This document shows, in pieces, positions 3,654 through 41,830 of a DNA stretch of 64,000 nucleotides. Origin of the DNA: Eledone cirrhosa (taxonomy: Eukaryota). The position numbers and the translations under genes are program-made. Position 1 is the first letter of the stretch; each line of letters opens with the position of its first letter. The DNA is taken from assembly GCA_964016885.1 (NCBI GenBank), contig OZ024743.1, forward strand, positions 14,756,001 to 14,820,000, given 5' to 3'. The notes below the pieces were generated by a model that ran no database searches, was not told where the DNA came from, and worked only from the letters and a program-made list of their open reading frames with translations.

Positions 3654-3659
3654 ATCATT

Positions 3660-7662: not shown

Positions 7663-7731
7663 CTCTTCTTCTTCTTCTTCTTCTTCTTCTTCTTCTTCTT
7701 CTTCTTCTTCTTCTATTCTATAATAATAATA

Positions 7732-7775
<44 letters not shown>
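7663..7775. repeat. (TTC)n followed by (AAT)n; left boundary of the retroelement block
   Basis: Direct reading. Confidence 0.95.
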
Positions 7776-7956
7776 TGTTTCTACTTTAGGCACAAGGCCA
7801 GCAATCACCAGTTCATTACTGGTACTTTACTTTATCGACCCCATAGGATGAAAGGCAAAGTCAACCTCGGCGGGATTTGAACTCAGATCGTAAAGAGACG
7901 TAACTATGCTGGAAAGCATGGCGTCCGACCCTCTACCGATACTGCCAATCCACGGC
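7776..7956 (-). mobile_element. tRNA-derived SINE in (AAT)n
   Basis: Same family as other copies; AAT repeats on both sides. Confidence 0.92.
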
Positions 7957-7985
7957 AATAATAATAATAATAATAATAATAATAA

Positions 7986-10900
7986 GGGAAGAAGACGCAC
8001 GAGGTGATAGAAGGTCATGAAATCGCTTCCGTAAGTTTTGAATTTTTAACATATTTAAATCATTTGTGAAATAACAACTCTTAGTACAAATGCTACGTAA
8101 AGCACCCGGCTTGAGCCCCCAAAAAATTCGGACCCAAAATATATTGTTATAAGGCTCAAATACTCAAATATTCAACTTTGTATTGTACATTGTTTATTCA
8201 AAAAAGAAAATAGCTATAAATGGAAGAAAAAACCCCTCCCCCTCCTCTGTCTACACTATATAGAACAGCCAAACAACACCAATCTCACCAACACCAGAAA
8301 CTTGATACACCACCTACCCCATCACCTCTCTGTGTACACTAAACACAACAGCCAGATAACGGCAATTTCACCACCACCACAACCAATCTTAACATAATAA
8401 GGATAATAATAAATACTATTATTATTGTCCCAAGTCTTAACAAACTGTTTAATCCCAACATTAAGGGAATTTAGGTCAACACACATATACGCGACTAACC
8501 CCATAGATTCACCGAACGGACATCAGTCCTTCATTGCTACCACCGCTACAACAACACCATCACTGCTGCCATCATTACTACCACTATCCCACCATCACCG
8601 CCGCCACCACTCCTTCATTGCTACCACCACTACAACACCATCACTACAGTAATACGATCACATCACCACCACCACTGCCTCGGTATCGACATCACCACCA
8701 CCACTGTCTCAGTATCGCTACCGCCACTACTGTCTCCCATTGCTTCTGCTAGTTGCTGCCACCACATTATAGAATTCCTACTAAAAAAGAGGAAGGTATC
8801 AAAATATATAGATAGACTCAAAAGAAAAAAGAAAGAACAAACATCAAAACCAAAACAGCACAGCAACAACAGCAAAAAACGAGAAAAACAAACAGAGAAA
8901 AACAAAAACAAAAAACAAAAAAAACGTAAAGAAAATAAGAATGAAGAGAGAAACAAGCGGACGGACAGAGAAGAGAAGGGAAACACAAAGACATTCGAAC
9001 ACTACATTACAATGAAACTTATGCTTATTCATTTTTGTTTTTTTTTATGCCTGTGTGTTTGTTTGTTTATTTGTGTTCGTCTACAGCGTGGTGATAATGC
9101 CACACAAGTGCCAAATGGAACGGCGCAACCACCGAAAACGGTGAATCCACAGATGGCTATGTAACCATACATTCGCCAATCCTCGATAAGAGTGTTTAAA
9201 TATCGAACCTAAACAGTTCGAATAACGGTGAAATGGAGACTAAAACGTCATGTGATAGACTCTCACCCAACAGGTGCTCCCTGGCTCAGCAGCAGGAACC
9301 TGACTGTCAACCAAATACTGCTGGTGTTGGGGGAAGAAGAAGAAGGAAAGGGGCCAGAACCAACTGGACGAAAGAATTGAATAGAACTGTTATGCAATGT
9401 TACCTGAAAAGTAACCCCAAGGAGAGGGGCTATAGGAGACGGATGCATAACATCTGGAACGAGATTGGTCTATTTAAATTAGATGAACAAAAATTGGACG
9501 GGCAGGCTCGGGTAATAAGAACTAATGGGTGGATAAGCGAGCTGGAACTGGAGGAACTGAGCAGAGAGAATAGCTTGGAGATGGAGGGTGTAGTATGCCA
9601 GACAAACGAGCCAGTGGGAAATGAAGGTGAAGAGGTCGAGAGAACGGAGGAACCACCCGAAGCAGACAATGATCTGAATACTGAGATAAATAATACCTGG
9701 AACAGAGATACGGCCACTGAGGAGATGAATGCTGACGGGCTAGGACAAGATTCGGTTGACATCCTAAATTTAGTGGTAGATGAATTGAGCAATGATAGTG
9801 GGAGACCTATGAAGCTAAGATTTGTAGACAGGAAAAAGTTAAAAGAAACAACAGCTAAGGTAAACAAAGTCATCCCATACCTTGAGGCGAGGAGCCTTCA
9901 CCAGTGCAACAATATCCTCAAAGCAACAGCACATACGGTGAGGAAACTACTTGGCATAAAAGCGAGAGGAAACAACAGACAAGAAAGAGCAGAGCCTTGG
10001 TGGAAGAAACGACTGAGTGGTCAAATCAAGGAAATGAGAAATGACATAGGAAAGCTTGAGTCACTACAGAATGGGACACTAAAAAACATAGGCACTAAAA
10101 ATAGACTGGAAATAAAGTACAAAACTAGGAGGAAAAAGCTAAATATGATCATAGAGGAACTGAAGCAACGCATTGTAGCAAAGAGTGCAAAAATCAGGCG
10201 ATACGAGAACAGAGTCAGTCAGTATAAACAGAACCGCATGTTCGACAACAACCAGAAGATGCTGTTTGGACAGCTTGAGGGGAAAGAAAGAGGCAACGAC
10301 TTGATCCCTGAGGCGGAACAAACTAAAACATTCTGGAGAGGAATATGGGAGCAGGATGTTAGACATAATGACCAGGCAGGGTGGATTGAGACAGTACAGA
10401 GGGAGATCGGTGAGCAGGCACACCAACAAACTGATTTGAGTATCACATTTGAAACTCTTAAGGGGCAGGCAAAAAAACTAACCAACTGGAAATCACCAGG
10501 CCCAGATGGTGTGCAGGGGTATTGGATTAAAAATTTAACATCCCTCCACGCGAAACAGACGGCCATGTTCAATGACTGCTTGGTGTCGGGTGAGGTGCCA
10601 GAGTGGTTGACAAAAGTACCACAGTTCTGATAATGAAAGACCGAATCAAGGGTAATGATGTTACCAACTATAGACCTATCACATGTCTGTCCGTAATGTG
10701 GAAACTGTTGACGAGCATTGTGTCTGAGGAAATCTACCATTACCTCCACACAAACAACTTGTTACCGGACGAACAGAAAGGATGCCGAAAGAAGTCACGT
10801 GGTGCAAAGGACCAGTTACTTATTGATAAGATGGTAATGGGGAATTGCAGAAGGAGACACACTGATCTTGCCATGGGATGGATAGACTACAGAAAGGCAT

Positions 10901-11922
10901 TTGACATGGTGCCTCACTCTTGGATCACCAAAAGCCTGGAGATCTTCAAGGTGGCAGATAACATCAGACAGTTGCTGGGCAGGAGTATGGGGTCCTGGGA
11001 GACAGAGTTGACATCAACTGGAGAATCCTTGGGAAGCGTGAAGATCAAGAGAGGTATCTTCCAGGGAGATAGCCTGTCCCCTCTGTTGTTTGTCCTTGCC
11101 CTGATGCCCTTGACCATTATGCTGCGAAAAGTGAGAGCAGGATACAAGTTGGGAAAGGGAGATTACCATCAATCACCTCCTCTTCATGGACGATTTAAGC
11201 TGTTCGGGAAGAGTGAGAAGAAGTTGGATGTGCTTGTTGACACTGTCCGTATTTTCAGCAGTGATATATGTATGCAGCTTAGTATTAGTAAGTGTGGAGT
11301 CATTATGATAAGGAGGGGTAGGTTGAGCAGAAGTAACGGAATCCAGATACCAACAGGTGAGATGATAAAGGAAATTGACTCTGAGGAAGCATACAAGTAT
11401 TTGGGCGTTCTGGAGGCTGATGGCATAAAGAACACAAAAATGAAGGAATTGTTAAGAACTGAATACATTCGGAGAATAAGGAGCGTATTGAAGTCACATC
11501 TGAACAGCAGAAATGCCATAAGCGCAGTAAATTCCAGAGCTGTGTCTATTATTAGGTACAGTGCGGGAATTCTGAGATGGAATGTTGCTGAACAAAAAGA
11601 AATGGATAGGAAGACTAGGAAGCTATTGACTATCTACAACATGTTCCACAAGAGGAGTGATGTCGATAGACTCTACCTAAGGAGATTTCCTCTTGACATG
11701 GTGCCTCACTCTTGAATCACCAAAAGCCTGGAGATCTTCAAGGTGTCAGATAACATCAGACAGTTGCTGGGCAGTTGCTTTTTGGAACGCTTCAAAAGGC
11801 ATGCTTGCAGGGAACAGCAAGAACCCTCCGATACGTCCTGAATATCTGAGGCTGCAGGTAGTGGCTTGATATTCATTCCAACGGACTTTCCAGTTAACCA
11901 GCATCAATGACTGAGATTCAAG

Positions 11923-11977
<55 letters not shown>
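7986..11977 (+). mobile_element. R4/Dong-clade non-LTR retrotransposon copy A (5' leader retained, internally rearranged)
   Basis: Starts right after (AAT)n; leader homologous to 23844-24877; RT motifs; 3'UTR and (AAT)n tail shared with other copies. Confidence 0.88.
9200..11715 (+). pseudogene. Copy A ORF (N-terminal domain plus RT), frameshifted, RLE region deleted
   Basis: [34 protein letters not shown]; frameshifts near 10615 and 11160; start ATG apparently mutated to ATA near 9200 relative to copy E. Confidence 0.85.
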
Positions 11978-11980
<3 letters not shown>

Positions 11981-14678
11981 AAATGAGAAATGACATAGGA
12001 AAGCTTGAGTCACTACTGAATGGGACACTAAAAAACATAGGCACTAAAAATAGACTGGAAATAAAATACAAAACTAGGAGTAAAAAGCTAAATATTATCA
12101 TAGAGGAATTGAAGCAACGCATTGTAGCAAAGAGTGCCAAAATCAGGCGATACGAGAACAGAGTCAGTCAGTATAAACAGAACCGCATGTTCGACAACAA
12201 CCAGAAGATGCTGTTTGGACAGCTTGAGGGGAAAGAAAGAGGCACCGACTTGATCCCTGGGGCGGAACAAGCTAAAACATTCTGGAGAGGAATATGGGAG
12301 CAGGATGTTAGACACAATGCCCAGGCAGGGTGGATTGAGACAGTACAGAGGGAGATCGGTGAGCAGGCACAGCAACAGACTGATTTGAGTATCACAGTTG
12401 AAACTCTTAAGGGGCAAGCCAAAAAACTAACCAACGGGAAATCACCAGGCCCAGATGGTGTGCAGGGGTATTGGATTAAACATTTAACATCCCTCCACCC
12501 GAAGCTGACGGCCATGTTCAATGACTGCTTGGTGTCGGGTGAGGTGCCAGAGTGGTTGACAAAAGGTACCACAGTTCTGATAATGAAAGACCGAATCAAG
12601 GGTAATGATGTTACCAACTATAGACCTATCACATGTCTGCCCGTAATGTGGAAACTGTTGACGAGCATTGTGTCTGAGGAAATCTACCATCACCTCCACA
12701 CAAACAACTTGTTGCCGGACGAACAGAAAGGATGCCGAAAGAAGTCACGTGGTACAAAGGACCAGTTGCTTATTGATAAGATGGTAATGGGGAATTGCAG
12801 GAGGAGACACACTGATCTTGCCATGGGATGGATAGACTACAGAAAGGCATTTGACATGGTGCCTCATTCCTGGATCACCAAAAGCCTGGAGATCTTCAGG
12901 GTGGCAGATAACATCAGACAGTTGCTGGGCAGGAGTATGGGGTCCTGGGAGACAGAGTTGACATCAACTGGAGTATCCTTGGGAAGCGTGAAGATCAAGA
13001 GAGGTATCTTCCAGGGAGATAGCCTGTCCCCTCTGTTGTTTGTCCTTGCCCTGATGCCCTTGACCATTATGCTGCGAAAAGTGAGAGCAGGATACAAGTT
13101 GGGAAGGGGAGAGCTTACCATCAATCACCTCCTCTTCATGGACGATCTTAAGCTCTTCGGGAAAAGTGAGAAGGAGTTGGATGTGCTTGTTGACACTGTC
13201 CGTATTTTCAGCAGTGATATATGTATGCAGTTTGGTATTGGTAAATGTGGAGTCATTGTGATGAAGAGGGGTAGGTTGAGCAGAAGTAACGGGATCCAGA
13301 TACCAACAGGTGAGATGATAAAGGAAATTGACTCTGAGGAAGGATACAAGTATTTGGGCGTTCTGGAGGCTGATGGCATAAAGAACAAAAAAATGAAGGA
13401 ATTGTTAAGAACTGAATACATTCGGAGAGTAAGGAGCGTATTGAAGTCACATCTGAACAGCAGAAATGCCATAAGCGCAGTAAATTCCCGAGCTGTGTCT
13501 ATTATTAGGTACAGTGCGGGAATTCTGAGATGGAATGTTGCTGAACAAAAAGAAATGGATAGGAAGACTAGGAAGCTATTGACTATCTACAACATGTTCC
13601 ACAAGAGGAGTGATGTCGATAGACTCTACCTAAGGAGATCTGAGGGTGGAAGAGGTCTCATCAGCATAGAAGACTGTGTTCAGATGGAGAAAAACAACCT
13701 ATACAAATACGTGACCTATAGTAAGGAGCCAATGCTCAGAGCTGTACTGAAGGAGGGGACAGTAGGCCAGGGGATACCCAAGGAGGAAATAACATCAAGG
13801 AGGAAGAGCAGCCTTAAGGGAAAATCCCTTCATAGTACCTTCTTTGAGAAAACTGAATTTAGAGATCCACAGACATGGAACTGGTTGAGAAGAGGAGACC
13901 TCAAAAAGGCTACAGAAGGAATGCTAATGGCTGCGCAGGAGCAGGCCCTCAAAACGAAGTGGTTGAAGCACCATATCTACAAGGAGGAGGCTAGCCCACT
14001 GTGCAGGATCTGTGGAGAGAGAGAGGAGACTGTGGCTCACATTGTGTCCGAGTGTAAACACCTAGCCCAGACCCACTATAAGGGCTGGAAACACGATGTG
14101 ATGGGCAGGGTGATCCACTGGCACCTGTGCAAAGTAAACAATCTACCACATTCTGAGAAATGGTATGAGCATAGGCCAGAGGCGGTGATGGAGAACAGTC
14201 AGGTGAAGGTGCTGTGGGATTTTAGGATACAGACGGACAAAAAACTGGAACACAATTGACCTGACCTGGTGGTTGTGGACAAAGAAAAAAGATCGTGCCT
14301 GATTGTGGATGTGGCCTGCCCGTTCGACACGAGAGTGCAAGAGAAGGAGAGGGAGAAAATTAACCGATACCAGGACCTAAAGTGGGAGGTGAAAAGGATT
14401 TGGAACTGCCATGAAGTCAAAGTGATCCCGATTGTCATAGGCGCACTGGGGACTATCTCCAAAGGTTTCCAGGGATGGTTAAAGAAAATCGGCCCCTTCA
14501 CGCTTTTTGGAACGCTTCAAAAGGCATGCTTGCTTGGAACGGCAAGAACCCTCCGATACGTCCTGAATATCTGAGGCTGCAGGTAGTGGCTTGATATTCA
14601 ATCCAACGGACTTTCCAGTTAACCAACATCAATGACTGAGATTCAAGGAATAACAATAACGATAATAATAATAATAAT
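11978..14678 (+). mobile_element. R4/Dong copy B (5'-truncated)
   Basis: Follows the copy A tail; ends in 3'UTR plus AAT tail. Confidence 0.92.
11983..14574 (+). pseudogene. Copy B RT-CCHC-RLE ORF with one premature stop
   Basis: LFMDD RT core, [18 protein letters not shown]; TGA at 14257-14259 replaces the R of RPDL. Confidence 0.9.
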
Positions 14679-16834
14679 GACTGCTTGGTGTCGGGTGAGG
14701 TGCCAGAGTGGTTGACAAAAGGTACCACAGTTCTGATAATGAAAGACCGAATCAAGGGTAATGATGTTACCAACTATAGACCTATCACATGTCTGCCCGT
14801 AATGTGGAAACTGTTGACGAGCATTGTGTCTGAGGAAATCTACCATCACCTCCACACAAACAACTTGTTACCGGACGAACAGAAAGGATGCCGAAAGAAG
14901 TCACGTGGTACAAAGGACCAGTTGCTTATTGATAAGATGGTAATGGGGAATTGCAGGAGGAGACACACTGATCTTGCCATGGGATGGATAGACTACAGAA
15001 AGGCATTTGACATGGTGCCTCATTCCTGGATCACCAAAAGCCTGGAGGTCTTCAGGGTGGCAGATAACATCAGACAGTTGCTGGGCAGGAGTATGGGGTC
15101 CTGGGAGACAGAGTTGACATCAACTGGAGTATCCTTGGGAAGCGTGAAGATCAAGAGAGGTATCTTCCAGGGAGATAGCCTGTCCCCTCTGTTGTTTGTC
15201 CTTGCCCTGATGCCCTTGACCATCATGCTGCGAAAAGTGAGAGCAGGATACAAGTTGGGAAGGGGAGAGCTTACCATCAATCACCTCCTCTTCATGGACG
15301 ATCTTAAGCTCTTCGGGAAAAGTGAGAAGGAGTTGGATGTGCTTGTTGACACTGTCCGTATTTTCAGCAGTGATATATGTATGCAGTTTGGTATTGGTAA
15401 ATGTGGAGTCATTGTGATGAAGAGGGGTAGGTTGAGCAGAAGTAACGGGATCCAGATACCAACAGGTGAGATGATAAAGGAAATTGACTCTGAGGAAGGA
15501 TACAAGTATTTGGGCGTTCTGGAGGCTGATGGCATAAAGAACAAAAAAATGAAGGAATTGTTAAGAACTGAATACATTCGGAGAGTAAGGAGCGTATTGA
15601 AGTCACATCTGAACAGCAGAAATGCCATAAGCGCAGTAAATTCCCGAGCTGTGTCTATTATTAGGTACAGTGCGGGAATTCTGAGATGGAATGTTGCTGA
15701 ACAAAAAGAAATGGATAGGAAGACTAGGAAGCTATTGACTATCTACAACATGTTCCACAAGAGGAGTGATGTCGATAGACTCTACCTAAGGAGATCTGAG
15801 GGTGGAAGAGGTCTCATCAGCATAGAGGACTGTGTTCAGATGGAGAAAAACAACCTATACAAATACGTGACCTATAGTAAGGAGCCAATGCTCAGAGCTG
15901 TACTGAAGGAGGGGACAGTAGGCCAGGGGATACCCAAGGAGGAAATAACATCAAGGAGGAAGAGCAGCCTTAAGGGAAAATCCCTTCATAGTACCTTCTT
16001 TGAGAAAACTGAATTTAGAGATCCACAGACATGGAACTGGTTGAGAAGAGGAGACCTCAAAAAGGCTACAGAAGGAATGCTAATGGCTGCGCAGGAGCAG
16101 GCCCTCAAAACGAAGTGGTTGAAGCACCATATCTACAAGGAGGAGGCTAGCCCACTGTGCAGGATCTGTGGAGAGAGAGAGGAGACTGTGGCTCACATTG
16201 TGTCCGAGTGTAAACACCTAGCCCAGACCCACTATAAGGGCTGGAGACACGATGTGATGGGCAGGGTGATCCACTGGCACCTGTGCAAAGTAAACAATCT
16301 ACCACATTCTGAGAAATGGTATGAGCATAGGCCAGAGGCGGTGATGGAGAACAGTCAGGTGAAGGTGCTGTGGGATTTTAGGATACAGACGGACAAAAAA
16401 CTGGAACACAATAGACCTGACCTGGTGGTTGTGGACAAAGAAAAAAGATCGTGCCTGATTGTGGATGTGGCCTGCCCGTTCGACACGAGAGTGCAAGAGA
16501 AGGAGAGGGAGAAAATTAACCGATACCAGGACCTAAAGTGGGAGGTGAAAAGGATTTGGAACTGCCATGAAGTCAAAGTGATCCCGATTGTCATAGGCGC
16601 ACTGGGGACTATCTCCAAAGGTTTCCAGGGATGGTTAAAGAAAATCGGCCCCTTCACGCTTTTTGGAACGCTTCAAAAGGCATGCTTGCTTGGAACGGCA
16701 AGAACCCTCCGATACGTCCTGAATATCTGAGGCTGCAGGTAGTGGCTTGATATTCAATCCAACGGACTTTCCAGTTAACCAACATCAATGACTGAGATTC
16801 AAGGAATAACAATAACGATAATAATAATAATAAT
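14679..16834 (+). mobile_element. R4/Dong copy C (2156-bp tandem unit)
   Basis: Same 5' junction (AAT tail into AATGACTGC) as copy D. Confidence 0.92.
14685..16730 (+). CDS. Open RT + zinc knuckle + restriction-like endonuclease frame (5'-truncated, 681 aa)
   Basis: [54 protein letters not shown]. Confidence 0.85.
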
Positions 16835-18997
16835 GACTGCTTGGTGTCGGGTGAGGTGCCAGAGTGGTTGACAAAAGGTACCACAGTTCTGATAATGAAA
16901 GACCGAATCAAGGGTAATGATGTTACCAACTATAGACCTATCACATGTCTGCCCGTAATGTGGAAACTGTTGACGAGCATTGTGTCTGAGGAAATCTACC
17001 ATCACCTCCACACAAACAACTTGTTACCGGACGAACAGAAAGGATGCCGAAAGAAGTCACGTGGTACAAAGGACCAGTTGCTTATTGATAAGATGGTAAT
17101 GGGGAATTGCAGGAGGAGACACACTGATCTTGCCATGGGATGGATAGACTACAGAAAGGCATTTGACATGGTGCCTCATTCCTGGATCACCAAAAGCCTG
17201 GAGGTCTTCAGGGTGGCAGATAACATCAGACAGTTGCTGGGCAGGAGTATGGGGTCCTGGGAGACAGAGTTGACATCAACTGGAGTATCCTTGGGAAGCG
17301 TGAAGATCAAGAGAGGTATCTTCCAGGGAGATAGCCTGTCCCCTCTGTTGTTTGTCCTTGCCCTGATGCCCTTGACCATTATGCTGCGAAAAGTGAGAGC
17401 AGGATACAAGTTGGGAAGGGGAGAGCTTACCATCAATCACCTCCTCTTCATGGACGATCTTAAGCTCTTCGGGAAAAGTGAGAAGGAGTTGGATGTGCTT
17501 GTTGACACTGTCCGTATTTTCAGCAGTGATATATGTATGCAGTTTGGTATTGGTAAATGTGGAGTCATTGTGATGAAGAGGGGTAGGTTGAGCAGAAGTA
17601 ACGGGATCCAGATACCAACAGGTGAGATGATAAAGGAAATTGACTCTGAGGAAGGATACAAGTATTTGGGCGTTCTGGAGGCTGATGGCATAAAGAACAA
17701 AAAAATGAAGGAATTGTTAAGAACTGAATACATTCGGAGAGTAAGGAGCGTATTGAAGTCACATCTGAACAGCAGAAATGCCATAAGCGCAGTAAATTCC
17801 CGAGCTGTGTCTATTATTAGGTACAGTGCGGGAATTCTGAGATGGAATGTTGCTGAACAAAAAGAAATGGATAGGAAGACTAGGAAGCTATTGACTATCT
17901 ACAACATGTTCCACAAGAGGAGTGATGTCGATAGACTCTACCTAAGGAGATCTGAGGGTGGAAGAGGTCTTATCAGCATAGAGGACTGTGTTCAGATGGA
18001 GAAAAACAACCTATACAAATACGTGACCTATAGTAAGGAGCCAATGCTCAGAACTGTACTGAAGGAGGGGACAGTAGGCCAGGGGATGTCCAAGGAGGAA
18101 ATAACATCGAGGAGGAAGAGCAGCCTTAAGGGAAAATCCCTTCATAGTACCTTCTTTGAGAAAACTGAATTTAGAGATCCACAGACATGGAACTGGTTGA
18201 GAAGAGGAGACCTCAAAAAGGCTACAGAAGGAATGCTAATGGCTGCGCAGGAGCAGGCCCTCAAAACGAAGTGGTTGAAGCACCATATCTACAAGGAGGA
18301 GGCTAGCCCACTGTGCAGGATCTGTGGAGAGAGAGAGGAGACTGTGGCTCACATTGTGTCCGAGTGTAAACACCTAGCCCAGACCCACTATAAAGGCTGG
18401 AGACACGATGTGATGGGCAGGGTGATCCACTGGCACCTGTGCAAAGTAAACAATCTACCACATTCTGAGAAATGGTATGAGCATAGGCCAGAGGCGGTGA
18501 TGGAGAACAGTCAGGTGAAGGTGCTGTGGGATTTTAGGATACAGACGGACAAAAACCTGGAACACAATAGACCTGACCTGGTGGTTATGGACAAAGAAAA
18601 AAGATCGTGCCTGATTGTGGATGTGGCCTGCCCGTTCGACACGAGAGTGCAAGAGAAGGAGAGGGAGAAAATTAACCGATACCAGGACCTAAAGTGGGAG
18701 GTGAAAAGGATTTGGAACTGCCATGAAGTCAAAGTGATCCCGATTGTCATAGGCGCACTGGGGACTATCTCCAAAGGTTTCCAGGGATGGTTAAAGAAAA
18801 TCGGCCCCTTCACGCTTTTTGGAACGCTTCAAAAGGCATGCTTGCTTGGAACAGCAATAACCCTCCGATACGTCCTGAATATCTGAGGCTGCAGGTAGTG
18901 GCTTGATATTCAATCCAACGGACTTCTCCAGTTAACCAACATCAATGACTGAGATTCAAGGAATAACAATAACAATAATAATAATAATAATAATAAT
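16835..18997 (+). mobile_element. R4/Dong copy D (5'-truncated)
   Basis: Near-identical to copy C with about a dozen differences; AAT tail. Confidence 0.92.
16841..18886 (+). CDS. Open RT + CCHC + RLE frame (5'-truncated, 681 aa)
   Basis: Same motifs as copy C. Confidence 0.85.
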
Positions 18998-19129
18998 TTT
19001 TTCTTTATTAACCACAAGGATTTACATAGAATAGACATTAAGGACAGTACAGGGAAATACAGGACGGTACAAATGGGCATTTCTGCGTGTAAAAAAAACA
19101 AGAAACAGAGGATTTAATAATAGAACAAT

Positions 19130-21729: not shown

Positions 21730-21763
21730 GTTGAAATGGAGTGGAAAAGATGGGAAAGACCAC

Positions 21764-23591: not shown

Positions 23592-23804
23592 TATTTTCAA
23601 AGAAAAAAAATTTTGTTTGATAATTATAAAAAGTTTAAATTTTGGGCTCAAGGCTCCAATATTTTTGAGTGTCCTTTTCAGAAATCAATGTATGTGCACT
23701 TATATACAGTTAATAAAAAATTTCCATAAATGGCAATTTTAAATAACTGAAAATAACAAGCCTTTGCGGAGCTCACGACGATACGATTTACTACGTAGGT
23801 CGCC

Positions 23805-23845
<41 letters not shown>

Positions 23846-25372: not shown

Positions 25373-25561
25373 TGTTTCTACTTTTGGCACAAGGCCAGCA
25401 ATTATTCCAGTGTATTACTGGTACATTATTTTGTCGACCCCGTAAGGATGAAAGGCAAAGTTAAACTCGGCGGGATTTGAACTGAGAATAGCAAGGGCCG
25501 TAACTCTATGCGTCAAAATATGGCGTCCGATCCTCTACCGATACTGCCAATACAGCACCCT
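25373..25561 (-). mobile_element. SINE inserted in Dong copy E
   Basis: 16-bp TSD TGCTGAAATAAATAAT at 25357-25372 and 25562-25577. Confidence 0.92.
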
Positions 25562-27597: not shown

Positions 27598-27778
27598 AGT
27601 TTCTACTTTAGGCACAAGGCCAGCAATTATCCAGTGCATTACTGGTACTTTATTTTATCGACCCCGTAAGGATGAAAGGCAAAGTCAACCTCGGCGGGAT
27701 GTGAACTCAGATCGTAAAGGGACGTAACTATGCTGGAAAGCATGGCGTCCGACCCTCTACCGATACTGCCAATCCACC
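27598..27778 (-). mobile_element. SINE inserted in Dong copy E
   Basis: Family match; inserted at an AATAA site in the ORF. Confidence 0.92.
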
Positions 27779-31800: not shown

Positions 31801-32188
31801 TTCCAAGAAAGGTCTCTAGACGTCTGAAGAAATCTGGCCGTCCTGCCCTTGTTGGGGCGTAGATGGCTACTAGCCTGAAAGCATTCCCTTCGCTGCCGGT
31901 CACGACCAGCACCATCGACTTACCGTCAGGGTCCAGGAAGATGGCCCGTATGGCGAGATCCAAGCCTCTCCGCAATAGCACGGCACCCCCCGATCCTGGA
32001 CGGCTGGGAGATGCATATACATCGTAGCCGTCGAAGATCGGTGCGAAGGCTCGTGCTTCGGAGATTCTGGTCTCGCTGATGGCCACCACATCTATGTTTA
32101 CTGATCTCAGGTCGTTTAGCGGGTGACCCTACTTCCAAGATGACCCCAGGCCACGTACATTTATACTGCCTATTCTAAGTACGGCCAT
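28830..32188 (-). pseudogene. Tx1 copy 2 ORF2 (APE + RT)
   Basis: MAVLRIGSINVRGL, ISETR, AIYAP, VGDWN, TDHK, YWKLN, LDKSKAFDRVDH; many breaks; 3' limit approximate. Confidence 0.85.
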
Positions 32189-32224
32189 GTTGGATGAGAT
32201 ACGGGGTAAGTGAGAAAGGAATAT

Positions 32225-34167
32225 TACATTGATCGTGTGGGTAAGGGACAGTAGAACCATTCCTTTGGCTGGTCATGGGTGTTTCCAAGGGGATGTCTGT
32301 GTATATCCTCTTGGTAACCGACCCTCGTAAGTCTCCAACTGCGTTGGGAAATGTTTGCTAAAAAGTTTGTAATGTTCTATTGAGATTTCAATGTTGTTTA
32401 TGTTTGTCGGGAGAGTTCTTGATGTTGATGGGGTATAGTATTTATTTTGTGATGTATGTATGCTGCTTTATTCGTTGTATGAGTTCTTTATTTGCCACGT
32501 TTATGGCTGTGTACGTTTTTGTGTCTCTGTTGGGTGTGTGTGTTTTTTTGTGTTTGCGATGTTGGTGTTTTTGGTGATTCTGGTAGTGGTGTGGTTGTTG
32601 TTGGTGGTGATGCTTGTGATGATGGTGGTGGTGTTGCTGCAAGCCTCCTTGCAGCCTTTACCGCTCTTTGTCTGCCTTCGCTTTTGGAGGGTGAAGCTAT
32701 GGTTTTTTTTTGTTTTTTGTTTTTTGTTTTTTGTGGCAGACCGTTTCCCACTTCCCTCCCGCTTCACACTCCATGTCGGACCCCACGATGTCCGGGAGGG
32801 GCATGAGCTCCACCGATGTTGGTGGTGGTAGTGGAGCCCGCTCCAGCGATTTTACCGCCGGCGTAGCTACTGCGATGTTGGTGTTGCCGCCACTGCTGCC
32901 GCTACTTTAGTTGTCCGTGGCCTTGGTATGAATGCCACGAACGTTGCCATACTACTCATCATGGAAGGGTCTTCTGCCTCTGTTTCCTGCCCTGCTCTTG
33001 GTAGCAGTGGATCAGGCGTCGGAAGGAGGGGGCCCTCTTCTTGGATGTCTTCTGCGGGCAGAAGGCCCTCAGGTGACCCTTCTGCCTACAGAGATATTAC
33101 TTTGGGCGCCTTCCCTCCACGCTTATAGGGAGATGGAGCCCTTCTTCAAGGTCTATGAGGTCTGGGATGGCCTCGATGCACTCTTGGTCAGTCTGTATTA
33201 GCATTTGCATGACTATTCCTGAGCAGTTCTCTCTTCCCATTCTCTGTATTTGTAGTATGGTGGTCGATTCCAGCCAGTACAGACGCGGCCAGCCGAGGTA
33301 TGGTCACGTCGGGCGGGACCTTGGTCACTTTGACCCTTACACTTTTCTGCCCGCAATAGAAGGTCACCAAGACTATCCCCTCACTCTTTATGGTTTCCAA
33401 AGAGTGAGACTTCGCCTCTTGGGGGGGGGGGGCGGGCGAAAAGTACGTCTACTGTGCCCTACTTTTTGCCTCGGGTGATGTGGATTTTGCGCGCCCAGAC
33501 GCACCGCAAGGCCTTTTTGATTTGAGCCTCCGTGGCTCTCTCCACCCGATGCGACATTTTGCTTACGGTGCGGTAAGTCACCGTGCGCAGTTGCTGGTCT
33601 TTGAAGAAATCGGATGGAGGTTTCGGGGAAACTCTGTTGTCGTTTCTCGACACCCTGCTCTTGCGACCGCTATCTCCTCCTCAGTGACTAGCACTGTTTC
33701 TATATTTCGGGCCACGCCTGCGAAAGAAGTGGCACCTTTTTCAGCGGCACCATTATTGCTGACGCTACTGGTCTTGTTGTTGTTGTTGTTGCTGTTGCTA
33801 CTGCTACGAACGGTGTTGTTGGTGTTGTTGCTCTTATCACAGTTGTAGTTTTGGTGCCACCGTTGTTGTTGTTTTCTGTGCAATTTGTATTGTTGCTGTT
33901 GGTGTTGTCGTTATTTACTTTCTTGTTAGTGGTGTTAATATCGTTGTTGCATTTGTTGTCTTTTTTTTCTGTTGTCTGTATTTTCGTTGACGCTGTTATT
34001 GTTGTAGTTCGTGTGGTAATTCTTTCGAAATTAGTGTTCTCAGTATTGTCTTTGTTCACGTTGTTTGTATTTGTGTCTGTCGTAACAATGTTTGTAAACC
34101 TCCTCTCAACTTTTACGCCGTTGTCAGACGACAGCAGATATATTGCTAAGGGGCGTGGCTCAGCCAT
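32225..34167 (-). pseudogene. Tx1 copy 2 ORF1
   Basis: MAEPRPLAIYLLSSDN, LRTVTYRTV, GHLRAFCP knuckle remnant. Confidence 0.75.
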
Positions 34168-34393
34168 GTTTTTATTTTTTTTTAAACAATTTTTTTTAAA
34201 AGGTAAAATTTTCAAATATTTGGTCCAAAAGGCCCAAATATTATACTTTCCCCTTCACAGGGCAAAGACTAAGGGCTTATATCCCTAACACAACAATAAC
34301 TATTTAACAACAAATAATTTTAACAGGCAAATAAAGCGACTTACTGGGAGCAAGCAAAAAGCGTCCGAACAGACCGATAATAATAATAATAAT

Positions 34394-34573
34394 TGTTTCT
34401 ACTTTAGGCACAAGGCCAGCAATTACCCAGTGCATTACTGGTACTTTATTTTATCGACCTCGTAAGGATGAAAGGCAAAGTCAACCTCGGCGGGATTTGA
34501 ACTCAGATCGTAAAGAGACGTAACTATACTGGAAAGCATGGCGTCCGACCCTCTACCGATACTGCCAATCCAC
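34394..34573 (-). mobile_element. SINE between Tx1 copies 2 and 3
   Basis: Family match in (AAT)n. Confidence 0.92.
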
Positions 34574-34759
34574 AATAATAATGATTTCATTTATTGGCCA
34601 CAAGGGATGACATATAGGGGACAATACAAAAGACTGGGACAGTGGGGTATTACAGAAAAGTCGAGTAAACAATATGAATAACAATAACAAAGTAACAATA
34701 ACAAAGTAACAATAAAGTAACAAGAAAATAACAAGAAAAAATTCCCCAATAGAGGGGAT

Positions 34760-37700
34760 GACCACCCAGGGTTCGCTCAGGTACCCCACCAATCCTGAAC
34801 GACCCGACGCTTCGAGAGCACCCTGGAAGGGCACCTCTCTACTTCTCAAATTTACCTACCTACAGCCGCATGACCAGAGTAGGCCCACTCACACGGGCCA
34901 TTCTCGCCACATTCACCCACCTTTCAGCAAATGTACTGGGGGTTGGGGGGAAGCACTTCTCTCTCCACCCTCACCTTCCTTTCCAAGTGAAAGTTGAAAA
35001 AGTTGATGAGGGATTGGCGGAAGAGAAAAGTGTCTGTCTTCAGTCCTTTCAACCTCGTCCACCATACAACCTCTTTCGCTACTGCCACAAGACAGAGGAA
35101 AATTGCCTGCCCTTCCTGGCCAAAAGAAGGCGGCGGGTCGATCTTCACTATGGACTCGGCCGATAGCCGGATCCGCTCTACACGCGACAACAGCTGTTCA
35201 ACATAACTCCACAAGTCACTAATGCACGGACACTGGACGAGTGCGTGCAGAACGGTTTCGTCGCTCTGCGCGCATCTTGAGCAGGTCCGTCTGACAGCAC
35301 TTCCGTGCCTGTAGCGTTTATCTCCAACCGGCAGTGCCCCCCGGTAGCACTGCCAAGCGAGAGATCTTTGGAAATTATCTCCGGTACAGACTGGTTAGTT
35401 CGACTTCGTTGACTCCCAGATCCTCTCCGAGTGCGACGTCGCACTTGCCCACCACTAATCCTCTAGAGAACTCGAGAGTGGACGTTCTACTGACCGCATT
35501 GCCCGCCTGGTAGAAGGCAGTTAGTGCCTGGCAACATTCCAGATGCCAGTCACCCAGTCTCGGTCTCTTCTTGACTTAGGACTGCAGCTCAGTCAAAGAA
35601 ACGAGCTTCGGAAAGACCCCTCTGACAAACGGCGACCACACCTGTTCACCGTATAGGCAGAATATCTGGAGATGGGGCAGCATCAGCGCGTGCCTGCGTA
35701 TCATTAGCCACGGCATTCCTAGCCCTCCACGTAGAGGGTGCTGGCAGCAGATGAACCGCCTCACCAGCGGAACCTGAGCTCTCCACAAGAATATTAAGAG
35801 GAGCCGCTCCAAGATGGCGAGGCGCGAACGGGGGCAAGGGACGACGGTCAGACGGTAGAAGATGACGGACGCGATGTACGCGTTCGCCACCCCCGCCCGA
35901 CCTTGATGTGATAGCTTCATCCCAACCCATTTCTGGGTGAGACTGGCTACCCTGCCCGTCACCTGGTCCCAATTCTTATCCACCTGGAGGTCTGACCCTA
36001 ACCAAACCCCTAGCAACTTCACCGGTCCGTCCGTCCAGCGCCTGTTGGACGGCATGCACTTGCCTCTCCAGGTGCCGAGTTGCAAGCCCACCGACTTTTC
36101 CGGGTTAAGTTTTGCTCCCGTCAACCTTTCATATTCCTCCAATAAGTTGCCGACCACCTCGATTTCTGAGGTGTCCGACACCATAACGGTGATGTCGTCC
36201 GCATAAGCCGACACAGCCTTTCCGCGTCCCGGTTCGAGCGGGATGCCCTGCAACAGCTCCAGCTTCTGCAGTAAAGGCTCGAGAGTCAATACGTACAGAA
36301 GGGAGGAGAGAGGGCACCCTTGACGGACCGATCGGGAGACTTGAAACGGTTCCGAGAGGTGGCCATTAATTTTGACCATCGAGCAGGTGCCGCTGTGCAT
36401 TGCAGCGATCCAGCTTCTGAAGACGTGGCCGAAGCCAGCCGCCTTGAGGACAGCCTCCAGGTACCGATGGTCGACCCTATCGAATGATTTCGATTGATCT
36501 AAATTGATCAGAGCCCCACCGAAGCCAGGTTTACACGCTACCCTCTCTATGAAGTATCGCATTAGGTGGAGGTTGTCGGGTATGGACGTGGTTGGGATTG
36601 CGCAAGTTTGCGCCTCCCCAACCAAATCCTCGACGACAAGCGCCAACCTCTTCGCTAACACCCTGGCCAAAATCTTAAACTCTGTGTTGAGCAGAGTTAT
36701 GGGCCTGAAATTGTCTAATGTGTCCCTCTTGTTCTTGTCTTTCCTTATCAGCATCACTACACCCCGGTTCACAGAACTGGGAATACTCCCGTTTTGCTGC
36801 CAGTTGTAGTAGAGGGCTTCGAGGACATTGGAGAACAAGTCTGGCATATTTACGTAAAGCTCGTAGCGCAGACCATCCAAACCGGGTGACTTGCGCTTCA
36901 TGCAGCCGACAAGGGCATCCTGAATCTCGGCTGAAGTAATTGGCCTTTCGCAGCGCCCAACGTCAGCCGTCGAGAGTTGCGGCAAGCCATTGAGGTAGGG
37001 ACTGAAGTCCGCCACCATCTCTCACCCGCCACTTCCCCCGAACAACCGAGCAAAATGTTGGAGAAAGGCCTCACACATCCTCTTGGAATCGTTCAGCTCG
37101 TGTCTGTCTCTGTCCGTCAAAGACCGAATCGTGGTTTTCTTACCCCGCTGCGCCTCTGCCACGCGGGCCCATCGAACAGCTTTGGTTCCCTCGTTTCTCA
37201 GAGCACGCGCCTTAGCTCTAACAATGCAACTTTCGTGTTTCGCATTGAAGAAATGGTCTAATGTCATTCTCGGCGCTAGCACGTCAGTTGCAATGCCACT
37301 ACAAATAGCCTCGTCTAACTTATCTACCAACTCCCTCTCCTTTCTATTTTTCTCTAACGCTACTTCTTTGCTAAACTCTATCGACATTACTCTAATCTCT
37401 CATTTGAGAGCCCCCCACCACCTATTGTTGACGACTCCCCCTGTCAACTTTTTCTTAACTAAATTGTTGACCTGGTCCCTGTAAGCCTTACGTGCCGGAA
37501 ATGACATGTTTAGCTTCCAGCAACCAGGTCCTAACCTACGCGTCTTATCTAGGTCAACCATACAGATCACAACCTTGTGATCTGAATAGGCGACCGTTTC
37601 AAAACGTGGACAGTTTACATTATTTCTGTCTATTTTCCTAATGAATATCCAGTCTATATACGATCTAGATGACCCTATGCGGTTAGCCCAGGTCCACACT

Positions 37701-38256
37701 GGCGCATTAGGGAAATCTAGTCGGTACCTGTCAGACAGTTGGAACTGGCTGCTCAGGTTTTGAGGCTTTTTCACCCCCCGCTCCTATCGGATACTCCCAC
37801 ACAGTCCCAGCGTGTGTCTAAGATTCCGTTCCGGTCCCCCGCTAACAGTAATGGGCGAGACGTAACCAAAATGGCTTCCAGACGTCTAAAGAAGTCCGGC
37901 CGTCCTGCCCCTTTAGGAGCATAGACGTCCACCAGTCTAAAGGCACCACCTTCGTTATTGTTCACGTCCAGGACCACCAAATTTCCGTCCGGGTCCCGGA
38001 AAATCCACTTTACCTCGAGATACAGGCATTTCCGAAACAGCACTGCCACTCCGCCTCCCATTCCCGGCCGGCTAACAGATGCAAATATCTGATAGTCATC
38101 GAAAATGGGGGCTAGTGCGCGCGTGTCGGAAATCCTGGTCTCGCTGACGGCAATTACATCCATTTCTATAGACCTGAGGTCGTTGAGCAGGTGACCCTGC
38201 TTCCAGGACGATCCCAGGCCTCGAACATTTAAACATCCTACTCTTAATACGGCCAT
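34760..38256 (-). pseudogene. Tx1 copy 3 ORF2 (APE + RT with intact YADD), frameshifted
   Basis: CLNVRGL, VSETR, VYAP, SYIDWIF, SDHK, CWKLN, NFRPITLLN, VRQGCPLS, YADD; 3' limit approximate. Confidence 0.9.
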
Positions 38257-38287
38257 GTTGGCAGGTTAAAATGAGAGAGAGGAAGGT

Positions 38288-40265
38288 TTACTTACCTTCC
38301 GGGCTCTTGTGAAGGTCGGGTTGTTCGACCTCCATAGTTGGTGGGATTTCTTTAGGGAACGCCTTTAAAAGTCTTGAAGTGGGTTTTACGTTCGGGGTTC
38401 CCACGTCCCGAGGAAAGCTGTCTCGTATTTCTTTGAATAAATCGATCGACATTCGCACCAGAACCAAATCTTCCGGCACGCGAAATGTGCTCGATTTAAA
38501 AATTTCCCCCTTTTTGTATGTTTTCACTTCGTGCTACAACAGCCACCAGTTTCTTGTTGGCCCTCCTGACGAGCACGACGTTTTGTATGTTTTGTTGGTG
38601 TGATTGTATTTGTTTGCACGGCTCGGGTGGTGATGGTTTTGGTGGTGTTGTTTCGGTTGTGTCTGTGTTTGTTGTGAGTGCGGTGTCTGTGGTTTCAAAA
38701 GTTTGTGTGTATATTTGTTCTTGTGTCTGTTTAGGTTGTTTGCGTTTGGGGGATTCTGGTGATGGTGATGGTGGTGTTGATGTTGGTGTTATTGGAGAGA
38801 TGTTTGCGTGGGTGTTGTCTGCGTTTTTTATTGTGGGTGATTTTGTGCATTATTCAGTGTTTTTTTTTTTTTGTGTTTCCTTTTTTGTATTTTGGGGGAT
38901 TTTGGTTTTCCCTCATCTTCACTACTGGTAGATGAGGGATCTTTGTCTGCAAGTGTGTCTATGTGTATGTTTATGGTTTTATTGGTGTGTGTATTTTTGG
39001 GGGGAGGGGGAATTTGACAGCTTTCCTCGTTTCCCCCCTGAGTGGTCAATGTTGGTAGTGGTCTTTCTATTGGTGTTGTTTTTGGTCGTTTTGCCGGTGC
39101 TGGTGTTGTTTGTGGTCCTCGCCCCGACGTCGTCAGCAGCGGAGCCTGTCGATTCTTGCCTCTTTCAGCAGTTGAGGGCAGAAGGCTCGCAAATGGGTTT
39201 TTTACCCTCAAACAAAACACTGCGGCCTTTTGCCTTCGGTCATAATGTGAATGACCGTCCCATTCTGAAGGCGGATGTAGTCCGGGATTGTCTTCACATT
39301 CTCGGGCCTGATCTGGAGAAGGATCTCCAGGTCAACTCCGGACCACTCCTCTCTGGCCATTCTGGTCACTTCTACAGGGACGGTCGCCGTCCCCTCCATA
39401 ATCACACATCCCAGAAGCCACCACATGTCAAGTCATGGTGGGATTCTGGGAATGCGGAGACGGGCCGTTCTTTTTTCCATGTGGGAGGGGTTCATTATGA
39501 CCTTCCTGGTTTTGCAAGGAGTCATAGCGTGTTTCATAGCGAGGGCTTCTGACTTGAACAACACCGAAATGGTGCCGTACTGTCTGCCCCTCTCTATGTA
39601 TTCAGTGTCTTCTCTGATGCACCTCAGCGCGACTTCGACATCTGCTTGTGGGATTAAAGCTGCCCTTTTGGTTTGTGCTGAGATGCATCTATAATGCACC
39701 GTTCTGCGCTCCACTGCCACAATAGCTTCTACCGGGACAGTTAAGTTGGCCCAGGTTTTCTCTTGCCTGACGAGCTTCCATGCCTGAGCCAACTTTTCAT
39801 CTTTGTTTGAGAGGTCCATGTTGAAGCATGGCCTCTATTCTGCTGCTGCCGCAGCGAAAGTATTCTTCTTGTTTTCGTTGGGGGTGTTGTTGTCGTTGTC
39901 GTTGTTCTTATTGGTGTTGTTGTTATCACTGTCGCTGTTATCATTGTTGTCTTTGTTGCCTCTGTTTTTCTCGGTGCAGTTGGTATTGTTGGTGTTGGTG
40001 TTGTCGCTATTTGTTTTCATGTTAGTGGTGTTGATGTTGTTGCATTTGTCATTTTTCTTTTGTCATCTGTATTTTCGTTGACGCTGTTACAGTTATTTTT
40101 TTCAAAATTAGAGTTCTCATTGTTATCTTTGGTGTCTTTGTTTACATTGTTTGTGGTGGTGGTTGTGTTATCAATGTGTGTTAATTTCGCTGTAGCGCTC
40201 CTCTCAACTTCTACGTCGTTGTCGCACGACAGCAGACATATCGCTGGAGGGCGTGGCACAGCCAT
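38288..40265 (-). pseudogene. Tx1 copy 3 ORF1
   Basis: MAVPRPPAICLLSCDN, IERGRQYGTISV, HLRAFCP remnant; frameshifted. Confidence 0.78.
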
Positions 40266-40480
40266 ATTTTTATTTATCCCGTAAATTTTTTAACATGTAA
40301 AAAAAGTTCAAATATTTGGGCCAAAAGGCCCAAATATTATACTTTCCCCTTTCCGGGGCAAAGTCTAAGGGCTTATATCACTTACACAACAAGAAATTTT
40401 TAACAACAAATAATTTTAACAGGCAAATAAAGCGACTTACTGGGAGCGAGCAAAATACGTCCGCTTAGACCAATAATAAT

Positions 40481-40660
40481 TGTTTCTACTTTTGGCATAA
40501 GGCCAGCAATTAACCAGTACGTTACTGGTACTTTATTTTATCGACCCCGTATGTATGAAAGGCAAAGTTAACCTCGGCGGATTTGAACTAAGATCATAAA
40601 GGGACGTAACTATGCTGGAAAGCATGTCCGAGCCTCTACCGATACTGCCAATTCACCGCC
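40481..40660 (-). mobile_element. SINE with 17-bp TSD
   Basis: CTTAGACCAATAATAAT at 40464-40480 and 40661-40677. Confidence 0.93.
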
Positions 40661-40686
40661 CTTAGACCAATAATAATAATAATAAT

Positions 40687-41754
40687 ACATGTTCCACAAG
40701 AGGAGTGATGTCGATAGAATCTACTTAAAGAGATCTGGAGGTGGAAGAGGTATTATCAGCATAGAGGACTGTGTTTAGATGGAGAAAAACAACCTGCACA
40801 AATATGTGACTGACAGTAGGGAGTCAATGCTCAAAATTGTACTTAAGGAGAAGACATTAGAACAGGGGATGTCCAGCGAGGAATTAACAAGGCGGAAGAA
40901 CAACCTTCATGAAAAATCCCTTCATAGCACCTTCTTTAAGAAAACAGAATTTAGAGATCCACAGACACTGGTTAAAAAGGGGAAAACTTAAAAAAGCTAC
41001 AGAAGGAATGCTAATGGCTGCGCAAGAGCAAGCTCTCAGAACGAAGTGGCTGAAACACCGTATTGACAAGGAGGGGGCTATCCCACTGTGTAGGATCTGT
41101 GGAGAGAGAGAGAGGCGACTGTGGCTCACATTGTATCCGTGTGTAAACATCTAGCCCAGACTCACTATAAAGGCTGGAGACATGATGTGATAGGCAGGGT
41201 GATCCACTGGCATCTATGCAAAGTAATCAATTTACCACATCCTGAGAATTGGTATGAGCATAAGCCAGAATCGCTGATAGAAAACGATCAGGTGTAGGTA
41301 CTATAGGATTTTAGGATACAGACGGACAAGAAACTGGAACACGATAGGCCTGACCTGGTGGTTTTGGACAAGGAAAAAGATCATGCCTGATTGTGGATCT
41401 AGCCTGCCCATTTCATACGATAGTGCAAGAAAGGAAGTGGGAGAAAATTAACCGATACCAGGACTTAAAGTGGGAGTTAAAAAGGATTTGGAACTGCCAT
41501 GAAATCAAGGTCGTCCTGATTGTCATAGGCGCACTAATTACTATCTCAAAGAGTTTCCAAGGATCGTTAAAGAAGATTAGTATAGCCCCTCTCTTTGGAA
41601 CACTTCAAAAGGCAGGCTTGCTAGGAACAGCAAGAACCCTCCGAGACGTCCTGAATATCTAAGGCTGCAGGTAGCGGGTTGATATTCATTTCAACAAACT
41701 TTCCAGTTAAATAGCATCAATGACTGAGACTCAAAGTACAATAATAATAATAAT
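40687..41754 (+). mobile_element. R4/Dong copy F (5'-truncated, decayed)
   Basis: [10 protein letters not shown] start, [26 protein letters not shown], 3'UTR and AAT tail. Confidence 0.9.
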
Positions 41755-41830
41755 CATAGAGTGTTATGGAATCGCTCCCGTAAGTTTTTGATATTTTTAC
41801 ATATTTAAAACAATTGTGATTTACATTGAT
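41755..41830 (+). mobile_element. 5'-terminal fragment of a further Dong copy (G)
   Basis: GTTATGGAATCGCTCCCGTAAGTTTTTGATATTTTTACATATTTAAAAC matches 23876-23930 and 8015-8070. Confidence 0.7.

What the first reader, a model, noticed from the sequence alone, without database searches (positions are those of the whole stretch)
7720..41830. 34-kb self-perpetuating retroelement community on an (AAT)n microsatellite, with strict strand polarity
Seen: every major junction in the block is an AAT tract. Seven R4/Dong pieces are all +, head-to-tail, and the six with 3' ends finish in (AAT)n. Three Tx1 LINEs and five SINEs are all -, ending in ATT(ATT)n on their own strand. Known: Dong (R4 clade, RLE) targets TAA repeats, and many Tx1-clade APE elements are sequence-specific, some for microsatellites. 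Inference: two unrelated endonuclease classes converged on opposite strands of one microsatellite. Each insertion regenerates or duplicates the target, so the array grows as a shared safe harbour that also hosts a SINE.
Basis: partly seen in the sequence, partly recalled or inferred. Interest (0 to 1): 0.75.

Follow-up and report, generated by a model that had tools for sequence, protein, structure and literature searches.

The report
Opposite-facing retrotransposons stacked in AAT repeats
This 34-kb stretch is a gap-free stack of two unrelated kinds of jumping gene that sit in AAT repeats facing opposite ways here and at sampled sites across the genome, likely because each primes its copying from a different DNA strand; it is a large example of a common pattern in this genome, and part of it likely grew by simple tandem duplication.

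Summary
Observation confirmed with corrections. All 14 junctions of 7722-41820 are (AAT)n tracts. Dong/R4-type LINE pieces are + (8 by my count); three APE LINEs (L1 group, Tx1-like) and five SINEs are -. Among best-matching copies genome-wide, 180 of 203 LINE ends abut an own-polarity tract and 0 of 203 the opposite one (background 0.1%). 5' ends do so too, so the tract is a target, not only a tail. 124 of 203 ends face another member; 122 obey the polarity. Corrections: pieces C and D are likely tandem duplicates of B; the SINE is not tract-specific (1 of 29) but likely uses the Tx1-like enzyme; 13-29 kb arrays occur elsewhere; 'safe harbour' is untested. Extra: two R4 families with 36%-identical proteins share a 96-99%-identical 230-nt leader that resembles the Tx1-like leaders. 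Precedents: Dong on TAA, TRAS/SART facing oppositely, Keno/Utopia (APE and RLE, one site). An ATT-targeting Tx1 was not found in the papers searched. This scan noted the same system, and the leader, before on other DNA of this genome. New variant of a known kind; interest 0.45.

The parts
7664..7775 (+). Compound microsatellite (CTT)17 then (AAT)4+13 at the left edge; likely remnant of the seeding tract
7776..7956 (-). SINE with Pol III A/B-box-like motifs (read by eye), between AAT tracts
7984..11923 (+). R4/Dong family a, copy A: intact 5' leader (96-97% identical to family b leaders), frameshifted ORF, internal deletion near 11686 with an 82-bp duplication, 3' end, then (AAT)18
11978..14663 (+). 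R4a copy B, 5'-truncated, 759-codon open frame with RT; then (AAT)5
14679..16819 (+). R4a piece C, likely a tandem duplicate of the 2156-bp 3' unit of B; then (AAT)5
16835..18973 (+). R4a piece D, same 5' junction as C; then (AAT)8
18998..23804 (-). Tx1-like LINE family A, both ends present, internal deletion removing the endonuclease region, tail-to-tail with D; (AAT)13 on its 5' side
23844..24502 (+). R4 piece E1 (older subfamily): 5' leader and UTR joined to a 42-bp R4 3' end; then (AAT)6
24521..28624 (+). R4 piece E2 (older subfamily, ORF region 88-90% identical to R4a), decayed, carrying two SINEs; then (AAT)6
25373..25554 (-). SINE inside E2 at a short AAATAAT site, 15-bp TSD
27599..27783 (-). 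SINE inside E2 at a short A-rich site
28643..34378 (-). Tx1-like LINE family B, full length, decayed ORFs (APE and zf-RVT hits); (AAT)5 on its 5' side
34394..34573 (-). Young SINE (99% identical to many genomic copies), then (AAT)3
34583..40471 (-). Tx1-like LINE family C, full length (APE, RT and zf-RVT hits); (AAT)3 on its 5' side
40481..40668 (-). SINE whose 17-bp TSD includes 8 bp of the TxC 5' end, so it inserted after TxC; then (AAT)6
40687..41739 (+). R4 piece G, 5'-truncated older copy; then (AAT)5
41755..41820 (+). R4 5' leader stub H, body absent; right edge of the array

Best explanation
The block is a nested array in which Dong/R4-type LINEs (restriction-like endonuclease) sit in (AAT)n tracts reading AAT and Tx1-like LINEs (APE endonuclease) sit in the same tracts reading ATT, likely because R4 primes reverse transcription from a nick in the ATT strand and the Tx1-like elements from a nick in the AAT strand. 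Shown: tracts at both ends, fixed opposite polarity, frequent nesting, endonuclease classes. Inferred: each insertion leaves a tract on both sides (split target plus short duplication or tail), which is a fresh landing site, so arrays grow by repeated insertion. A second route, tandem duplication of element-plus-tract units, likely made C and D. The SINE likely borrows the Tx1-like enzyme (similar last ~25 nt, same strand, TSDs starting ATTA) but needs only a short ATTA site, so it joins arrays without being confined to them.
For: Own-polarity tract of 3 or more units within 6 nt: 3' ends TxA 25/29, TxB 19/29, TxC 26/29, R4a 28/29; 5' ends TxA 29/29, TxB 27/29, R4 26/29; opposite polarity 0/203; background 250/237,600. 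5'-truncated copies: 27 of 37 R4 rows and 9 of 12 TxA rows have a tract at the 5' junction (read by eye). Neighbour across the tract is a member at 124 of 203 ends, 122 concordant. In 600 kb of evenly spaced tiles 44 of 46 member-tract contacts are concordant, and 10 of 21 tracts of 6 or more units are LINE-flanked against 8 of 79 shorter ones. Intact R4 ORFs of 1141 and 1216 aa carry CCHC and PD..D..K motifs; best solved matches are R2 by sequence and by fold. The Tx ORF2 has APE motifs and its best solved match is L1 ORF2p. The four window Tx RTs form one clade (100/100) apart from the R4 RTs at about 25% identity. B, C and D share rare alleles (BC twice, CD once) and identical junctions. 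SINE TSDs of 8 bp or more in 21 of 29; 26 of 29 3' flanks begin ATTA.
Against: No nicking or insertion assay. The search sets are the best 29 non-self matches among about 200-2,300 candidates per query, so they favour young copies, and junctions seen from two queries were not de-duplicated. TxB is looser (19/29 at 3'; by eye only 1-2 of 5 truncated copies have a 5' tract). An old Tx-clade copy at 52.5-54.3 kb shows no abutting tract. Two neighbours are discordant (L038, L125), as are two SINE contacts in the tiles. SINE-Tx tail similarity is modest: 1 to 114 of 2000 random windows score as high, and the array-type SINE tail scores higher inside the R4a body than anywhere in the Tx bodies. C is also 99.6-99.7% identical to unrelated young copies, so the duplication call rests on 3 alleles plus junction identity.
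Confidence: 0.8

Rival explanations
1. Polarity is set by RNA-primer pairing, not by endonuclease strand choice: both enzymes nick AT-rich tracts on either strand, and only the nick whose 3' end pairs with the element's (AAU)n or (AUU)n RNA tail is extended.
For: Neither class has a poly(A) tail. R4a ends in target-like AATAAC units and the Tx families end in triplet-like sequence before ATT. Several truncated 5' junctions share AAT microhomology. Annealing of target-like 3' sequence is proposed for SART1 and R1Bm (PMC7265360 passages).
Against: In TRAS/SART the endonuclease is described as the primary determinant. The two steps are compatible, so this may act together with the best explanation.
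Confidence: 0.3
2. The tracts are only the elements' own tails and co-transcribed leaders; insertion is at short AT-rich sites and clustering is passive.
For: The SINE behaves this way. Some TxB copies have only 1-2 ATT units.
Against: 5' tracts occur on full-length copies and on most 5'-truncated copies, which a 3' tail or 5' leader cannot supply. No unique-sequence TSD outside the tracts was seen by eye in 30 both-end rows (one row lacked a true 3' end).
Confidence: 0.07
3. The block is mainly an assembly artefact or a segmental duplication.
For: B, C and D are near-identical tandem units. A similar 11.2-kb tandem unit occurs at C3:112.7 Mb. Continuity could not be tested with reads.
Against: B, C and D differ at 6 and 11 sites. 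The three Tx RTs are 56-70% identical. The other junctions are distinct. Duplication accounts for about 4.3 of 34 kb.
Confidence: 0.04

Closest known systems
Dong (R4 clade; Bombyx, Anopheles, Biomphalaria, Darwinula Dong1/2)
   Same: Single ORF with RT and RLE, and a (TAA)n target reported in most insects, molluscs and cnidarians (PMC7998251 passages; PMC3812793 passages). TAA precedes the 5' end on the sense strand in the Bombyx primer (PMC3774820 passages).
   Different: Here two families 36% identical in protein share a 96-99% identical leader. No HDV-like ribozyme was detected, unlike Bombyx Dong. They interleave with APE LINEs.
Microsatellite-specific Tx1 clade: Kibi (TC)n, Koshi (TTC)n, crocodilian (TTCC)n/(TTTC)n families
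   Same: APE-RT ORF2 with zf-RVT, ORF1 with a zinc knuckle, insertion into a simple repeat (PMC4494074 passages and section 15).
   Different: The target is (ATT)n, which those papers do not list. Placement next to named Tx1 elements could not be tested.
TRAS1 and SART1 in (TTAGG)n
   Same: Two LINE families in one repeat in opposite directions (PMC7265360 passages).
   Different: Both are APE elements of the R1 clade at telomeres (clade recalled); here RLE faces APE in dispersed microsatellites.
Keno (Tx1, APE) and Utopia (RLE) in U2 snRNA genes
   Same: Parallel evolution of APE and RLE specificity for one site (PMC4640811 passages).
   Different: Same 3' flank, so the same orientation, in a gene target; no mixed opposite-facing arrays in the passages read.
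SINEU with Tx1-Mar (crocodilians)
   Same: A SINE likely mobilised by Tx1, with weaker target preference in some families (PMC4494074 passages).
   Different: The SINE here has a Pol III-box-like head rather than a U1/U2 head, and a short ATTA site.

Membership tests
R4/Dong clade | Single ORF with central RT | tested here: met
   Intact 1141-aa and 1216-aa ORFs in genomic copies with RVT_1
R4/Dong clade | C-terminal CCHC finger and PD-(D/E)xK restriction-like endonuclease, no APE | tested here: met
   Motifs at 952 and 1037 of P0001; model pLDDT 85, best fold matches R2 at E 4e-36; no Exo_endo_phos hit
R4/Dong clade | N-terminal Myb/SANT-like domain without zinc fingers (PMC7998251) | tested here: inconclusive
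   Confident helical domain at residues 53-128, no Pfam Myb hit; the domain-only model was poor (pLDDT 56) and was not searched
R4/Dong clade | (TAA)n target on the sense strand | tested here: met
   26/29 5' ends and 28/29 3' ends
R4/Dong clade | RT groups with named R4/Dong elements rather than R2, NeSL or HERO | not testable with these tools
   Homologues carry no element names; the tree has unnamed rows only
R4/Dong clade | 5' HDV-like ribozyme (reported for Bombyx Dong and R4; not clade-defining) | tested here: inconclusive
   No Rfam ribozyme hit and none with my descriptor; neither was run on a positive control
L1 group / Tx1 clade | ORF2 with N-terminal APE and RT, closer to L1 than to R2 | tested here: met
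   (L1 ORF2p E 3e-37; R2 4e-20)
L1 group / Tx1 clade | Separate ORF1 with a gag-like CCHC knuckle, and C-terminal zf-RVT (recalled as Tx1-typical) | tested here: met
   Knuckle at 349 of P0005; zf-RVT above cut-off in TxB and TxC
L1 group / Tx1 clade | RT groups with named Tx1 elements (Tx1L, Kibi, Koshi, Keno) | not testable with these tools
   The best homologue is an unnamed medaka protein at 32%; only one distant hit carries an automatic 'TX1' name
SINE mobilised by the Tx1-like LINEs | Shared 3' tail | tested here: inconclusive
   In-register terminal similarity to all three Tx tails (1-114 of 2000 random windows as high), none to R4 tails
SINE mobilised by the Tx1-like LINEs | Shared insertion-site signature | tested here: met
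   26 of 29 3' flanks begin ATTA on the SINE strand; TSD of 8 bp or more in 21 of 29
Named SINE superfamily (Meta, CORE, Deu) | Conserved central domain | not tested
   No reference consensus was available as text; Rfam gave no tRNA hit

The most novel reading that the evidence does not exclude
The shared arrays are module-exchange arenas: unrelated LINEs packed on one microsatellite swap 5' leaders, so that two R4 families with 36%-identical proteins carry one nearly identical leader, itself captured from the APE Tx1-like lineage (including its old ORF1 start), while a single APE enzyme reads long (ATT)n in cis and only ATTA in trans for the SINE.
Probability: 0.35. Interest if true: 0.7.

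Novelty: new variant of a known kind. Interest (0 to 1): 0.45.

Why it matters
It gives a high-copy, apparently recent system in which an APE and an RLE element use one three-base repeat from opposite strands, with intact R4 ORFs available. That makes the question 'endonuclease or RNA tail: which sets orientation?' directly testable. It adds (ATT)n to the Tx1-like target list and offers one mechanism for LINE hotspots; a 2026 Octopus vulgaris annotation lists Dong-R4 and L1-Tx1 as recently active and reports hotspots but has no hits for 'target' or 'nested'. These families cover about 6% of sampled DNA. Each ingredient has precedent, and this window is one of many examples.

Tried and rejected
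Read-level test of continuity: only short-read contigs and RAD reads were listed, no RNA holder; laying them on 22.5-35.5 kb was swamped by other copies and gave no verdict. HDV-like ribozyme at the 5' ends: nothing by Rfam on 4 full-length loci or my descriptor (Tx hits were AT-rich noise; no positive control). Protein homology between the R4 5' region and Tx ORF1: none (best E 0.19); ORF1 against P0136: none. The recalled Meta-domain identity of the SINE could not be checked. Thirteen 'discordant' neighbours fell to 2 after masking a SINE fragment inside the R4b library copy. Xiong & Eickbush 1993 and Kojima & Fujiwara 2004 are not held; they are known only through citing passages. Paper searches for an ATT-targeting Tx1 or a shared Dong/Tx1 target found none; one search returned only irrelevant papers. 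Repbase and subscription journals were not searched and may describe it; supplements of PMC4494074 and PMC13282606 were not read. The 'safe harbour' claim and the host species were not tested.
Full report
Anatomy. Self-BLAST, ORF and Pfam scans and direct reading resolve 7722-41820 into an unbroken series. Left to right: SINE(-), R4 A, B, C, D (+), TxA(-), R4 E1, E2 (+; two SINEs inside E2), TxB(-), SINE(-), TxC(-), SINE(-), R4 G (+) and a 5' stub H (+). All 14 junctions are (AAT)3-18 on +. The two ATT tracts inside the block are internal to R4 5' UTRs. A mirror-image mini-array (ATT on +, SINE +, R4b -) lies at 3450-4474.

What the elements are. Intact genomic copies give R4a (P0001, 1141 aa) and a second family R4b (P0002, 1216 aa), 36% identical. 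Both have RT, a CCHC finger and a PD..D..K motif. P0001's best solved relatives are R2 proteins by sequence and by fold (model pLDDT 85). The minus-strand LINEs have APE, RT and zf-RVT hits, best solved match L1 ORF2p, and an ORF1 zinc knuckle. Their RTs are 56-70% identical and form one clade with an old copy at 52.5-54.3 kb (100/100), about 25% identical to the R4 RTs (35 rows, unnamed homologues, long-branch warning at the root). The labels Dong/R4 and Tx1 therefore rest on architecture and target, not on placement beside named elements.

Target or tail? I searched G000 with element ends that exclude the tracts. Each gave 30 loci, the best of 40 scored among about 200-2,300 candidates; the window's own locus was dropped, leaving 29. 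An own-polarity tract of 3 or more units lies within 6 nt at 25, 19, 26 and 28 of 29 3' ends (TxA, TxB, TxC, R4a) and at 29, 27 and 26 of 29 5' ends (TxA, TxB, R4). The opposite polarity occurs at 0 of 203. The background is 250 of 237,600 positions in 600 kb of evenly spaced tiles. TxC 5' ends were not searched separately. 5'-truncated copies mostly have the tract too: by eye 27 of 37 R4 rows (2 more with a tract that flips polarity) and 9 of 12 TxA rows, but only 1-2 of 5 TxB and 1 of 2 TxC rows. In 30 both-end rows I saw no unique-sequence TSD outside the tracts. So the tract is a target; TxB is looser.

Polarity and nesting. Across the tract, 124 of 203 LINE ends meet another member (85 LINE, 39 SINE), and 122 follow the rule. 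The exceptions are a tract that itself flips (L038) and a site inside R4b (L125) (junctions not de-duplicated across queries). In the evenly spaced tiles 44 of 46 contacts follow it. Tx, R4 and SINE cover 4.1, 1.6 and 2.3% of that DNA, and 10 of 21 tracts of 6 or more units are LINE-flanked against 8 of 79 shorter ones. This fits positive feedback but does not separate preference for long tracts from tract lengthening. Five regions chosen because two hits lay close together hold arrays of about 13-29 kb, so the block is a large member of a common class.

A second growth route. The B|C and C|D junctions are identical, C starts at an internal AAT of B, and against 55 other copies B, C and D share rare alleles (BC twice, CD once). 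C and D are likely tandem duplicates, about 4.3 kb. An 11.2-kb tandem unit occurs in another array. Caveat: unrelated young copies are as close to C overall (99.6-99.7%).

The SINE. Only 1 of 29 genomic copies abuts a tract at each end. Instead 26 of 29 3' flanks begin ATTA and 21 of 29 have a TSD of 8-21 bp. Its last ~25 nt resemble the Tx tails in register (1-114 of 2000 random windows score as high, depending on the pair) and not the R4 tails. This suggests mobilisation by the Tx1-like enzyme with relaxed specificity; the statistics are modest.

Mechanism. By target-primed reverse transcription (established knowledge), the primer is the strand complementary to the RNA. R4 would thus prime from the ATT strand and Tx from the AAT strand. 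The Tx junction phase fits a T/A nick like that reported for TRAS1 but is ambiguous because the RNA may carry the triplets. Splitting a tract, plus a TSD of SINE-like size or a repeat tail, would leave a target on both sides. None of this was assayed; annealing of the RNA tail is a live rival.

Shared leader. The first 230 nt of R4a and R4b copies are 96-99% identical although their ORFs give no BLASTN match. The older R4a subfamily in this window (ORF 88-90% identical) has only 66-71% leader identity. This points to a recent leader exchange between the families. The leader also resembles the Tx leaders: a profile built from six Tx leaders scores it 18.8 bits (E 1e-4) and the older leader 10.2, against at most 4.0 in 200 kb of tiles. 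An ATG sits at about +225 versus +202 to +222. Pairwise tests were mixed (R4E-TxD not significant), and there is no protein homology to ORF1. Convergence on a host promoter motif is not excluded. I found this before looking it up; note e1-9948259 reports the same.

Comparison. Dong targets TAA. Known microsatellite Tx1 targets are TC, TTC, TTCC and TTTC. TRAS1 and SART1 face oppositely in one repeat. Keno (APE) and Utopia (RLE) converged on one U2 site. What I saw of each paper: passages of PMC4640811, PMC3812793, PMC4824008, PMC7998251, PMC9115989, PMC3774820, PMC7265360 and PMC4758252; passages and section 15 of PMC4494074; the first third and passages of PMC13282606; no supplements. Searches found no ATT-targeting Tx1; Repbase was not available. 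Eight earlier notes of this scan describe the same system elsewhere in this genome (391 notes fit the look-up); they are not independent evidence.

Verdict. Real, well supported as a genome-wide pattern, mechanistically inferred. New variant of a known kind; interest 0.45.

Noticed in passing
window 7984-8213; L261-L280: R4a and R4b (36% protein identity) share a 96-99% identical 230-nt leader, while the older R4a subfamily's leader is 66-71% identical; likely a recent leader swap.
   Followed up: yes
window 7984-8215, 23590-23804, 34170-34378, 40260-40471: R4 and Tx leaders share a short motif ending in a splice-donor-like GTAAG near +30 to +50, a T-rich stretch, hairpin-like GC-rich arms and an A-rich ATG context near +200 to +230.
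   Followed up: partly
window 3450-4474: Mirror-image mini-array: ATT tracts on +, SINE +, R4b 3' fragment -, SINE +.
   Followed up: partly
window 52507-54305: Old decayed Tx-clade copy on + (63-72% to TxC) with no abutting tract; the large AAT tract at 54648-54797 is 340 bp away and has no member beside it.
   Followed up: partly
L264 (R4b, about 790-860 from its 5' end); also L263, L270, L272: R4b carries a fixed fragment of the SINE's 3' end in its 5' UTR.
   Followed up: partly
L242, L244, L248: Three TxA copies hold a SINE at about the same place in ORF1, suggesting a SINE-carrying TxA subfamily or a hotspot.
   Followed up: no
L015, L107, L111, L248, L306, L019: At least three further Tx-like families, and a possible fourth leader, start directly after (ATT)n.
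   Followed up: partly
G000:C3:112.74-112.77 Mb (L312-L315); L048/L049, L202/L203, L206/L207, L268: Tandem duplication of element-plus-tract units (2.7-11.2 kb) appears to recur in other arrays.
   Followed up: partly
L038, L055, L268: Tracts that switch from AAT to ATT, with neighbours following the local half.
   Followed up: no
window 1502-1733 vs 182-413; 1655-1988; 58414-58530: A 232-bp exact inverted duplication and two palindromic stretches in the flanks.
   Followed up: no
window 57406-57650; L080, L127, L137, L172: A longer SINE variant with a different pre-tail segment, whose tail is the closer match to the Tx tails.
   Followed up: partly
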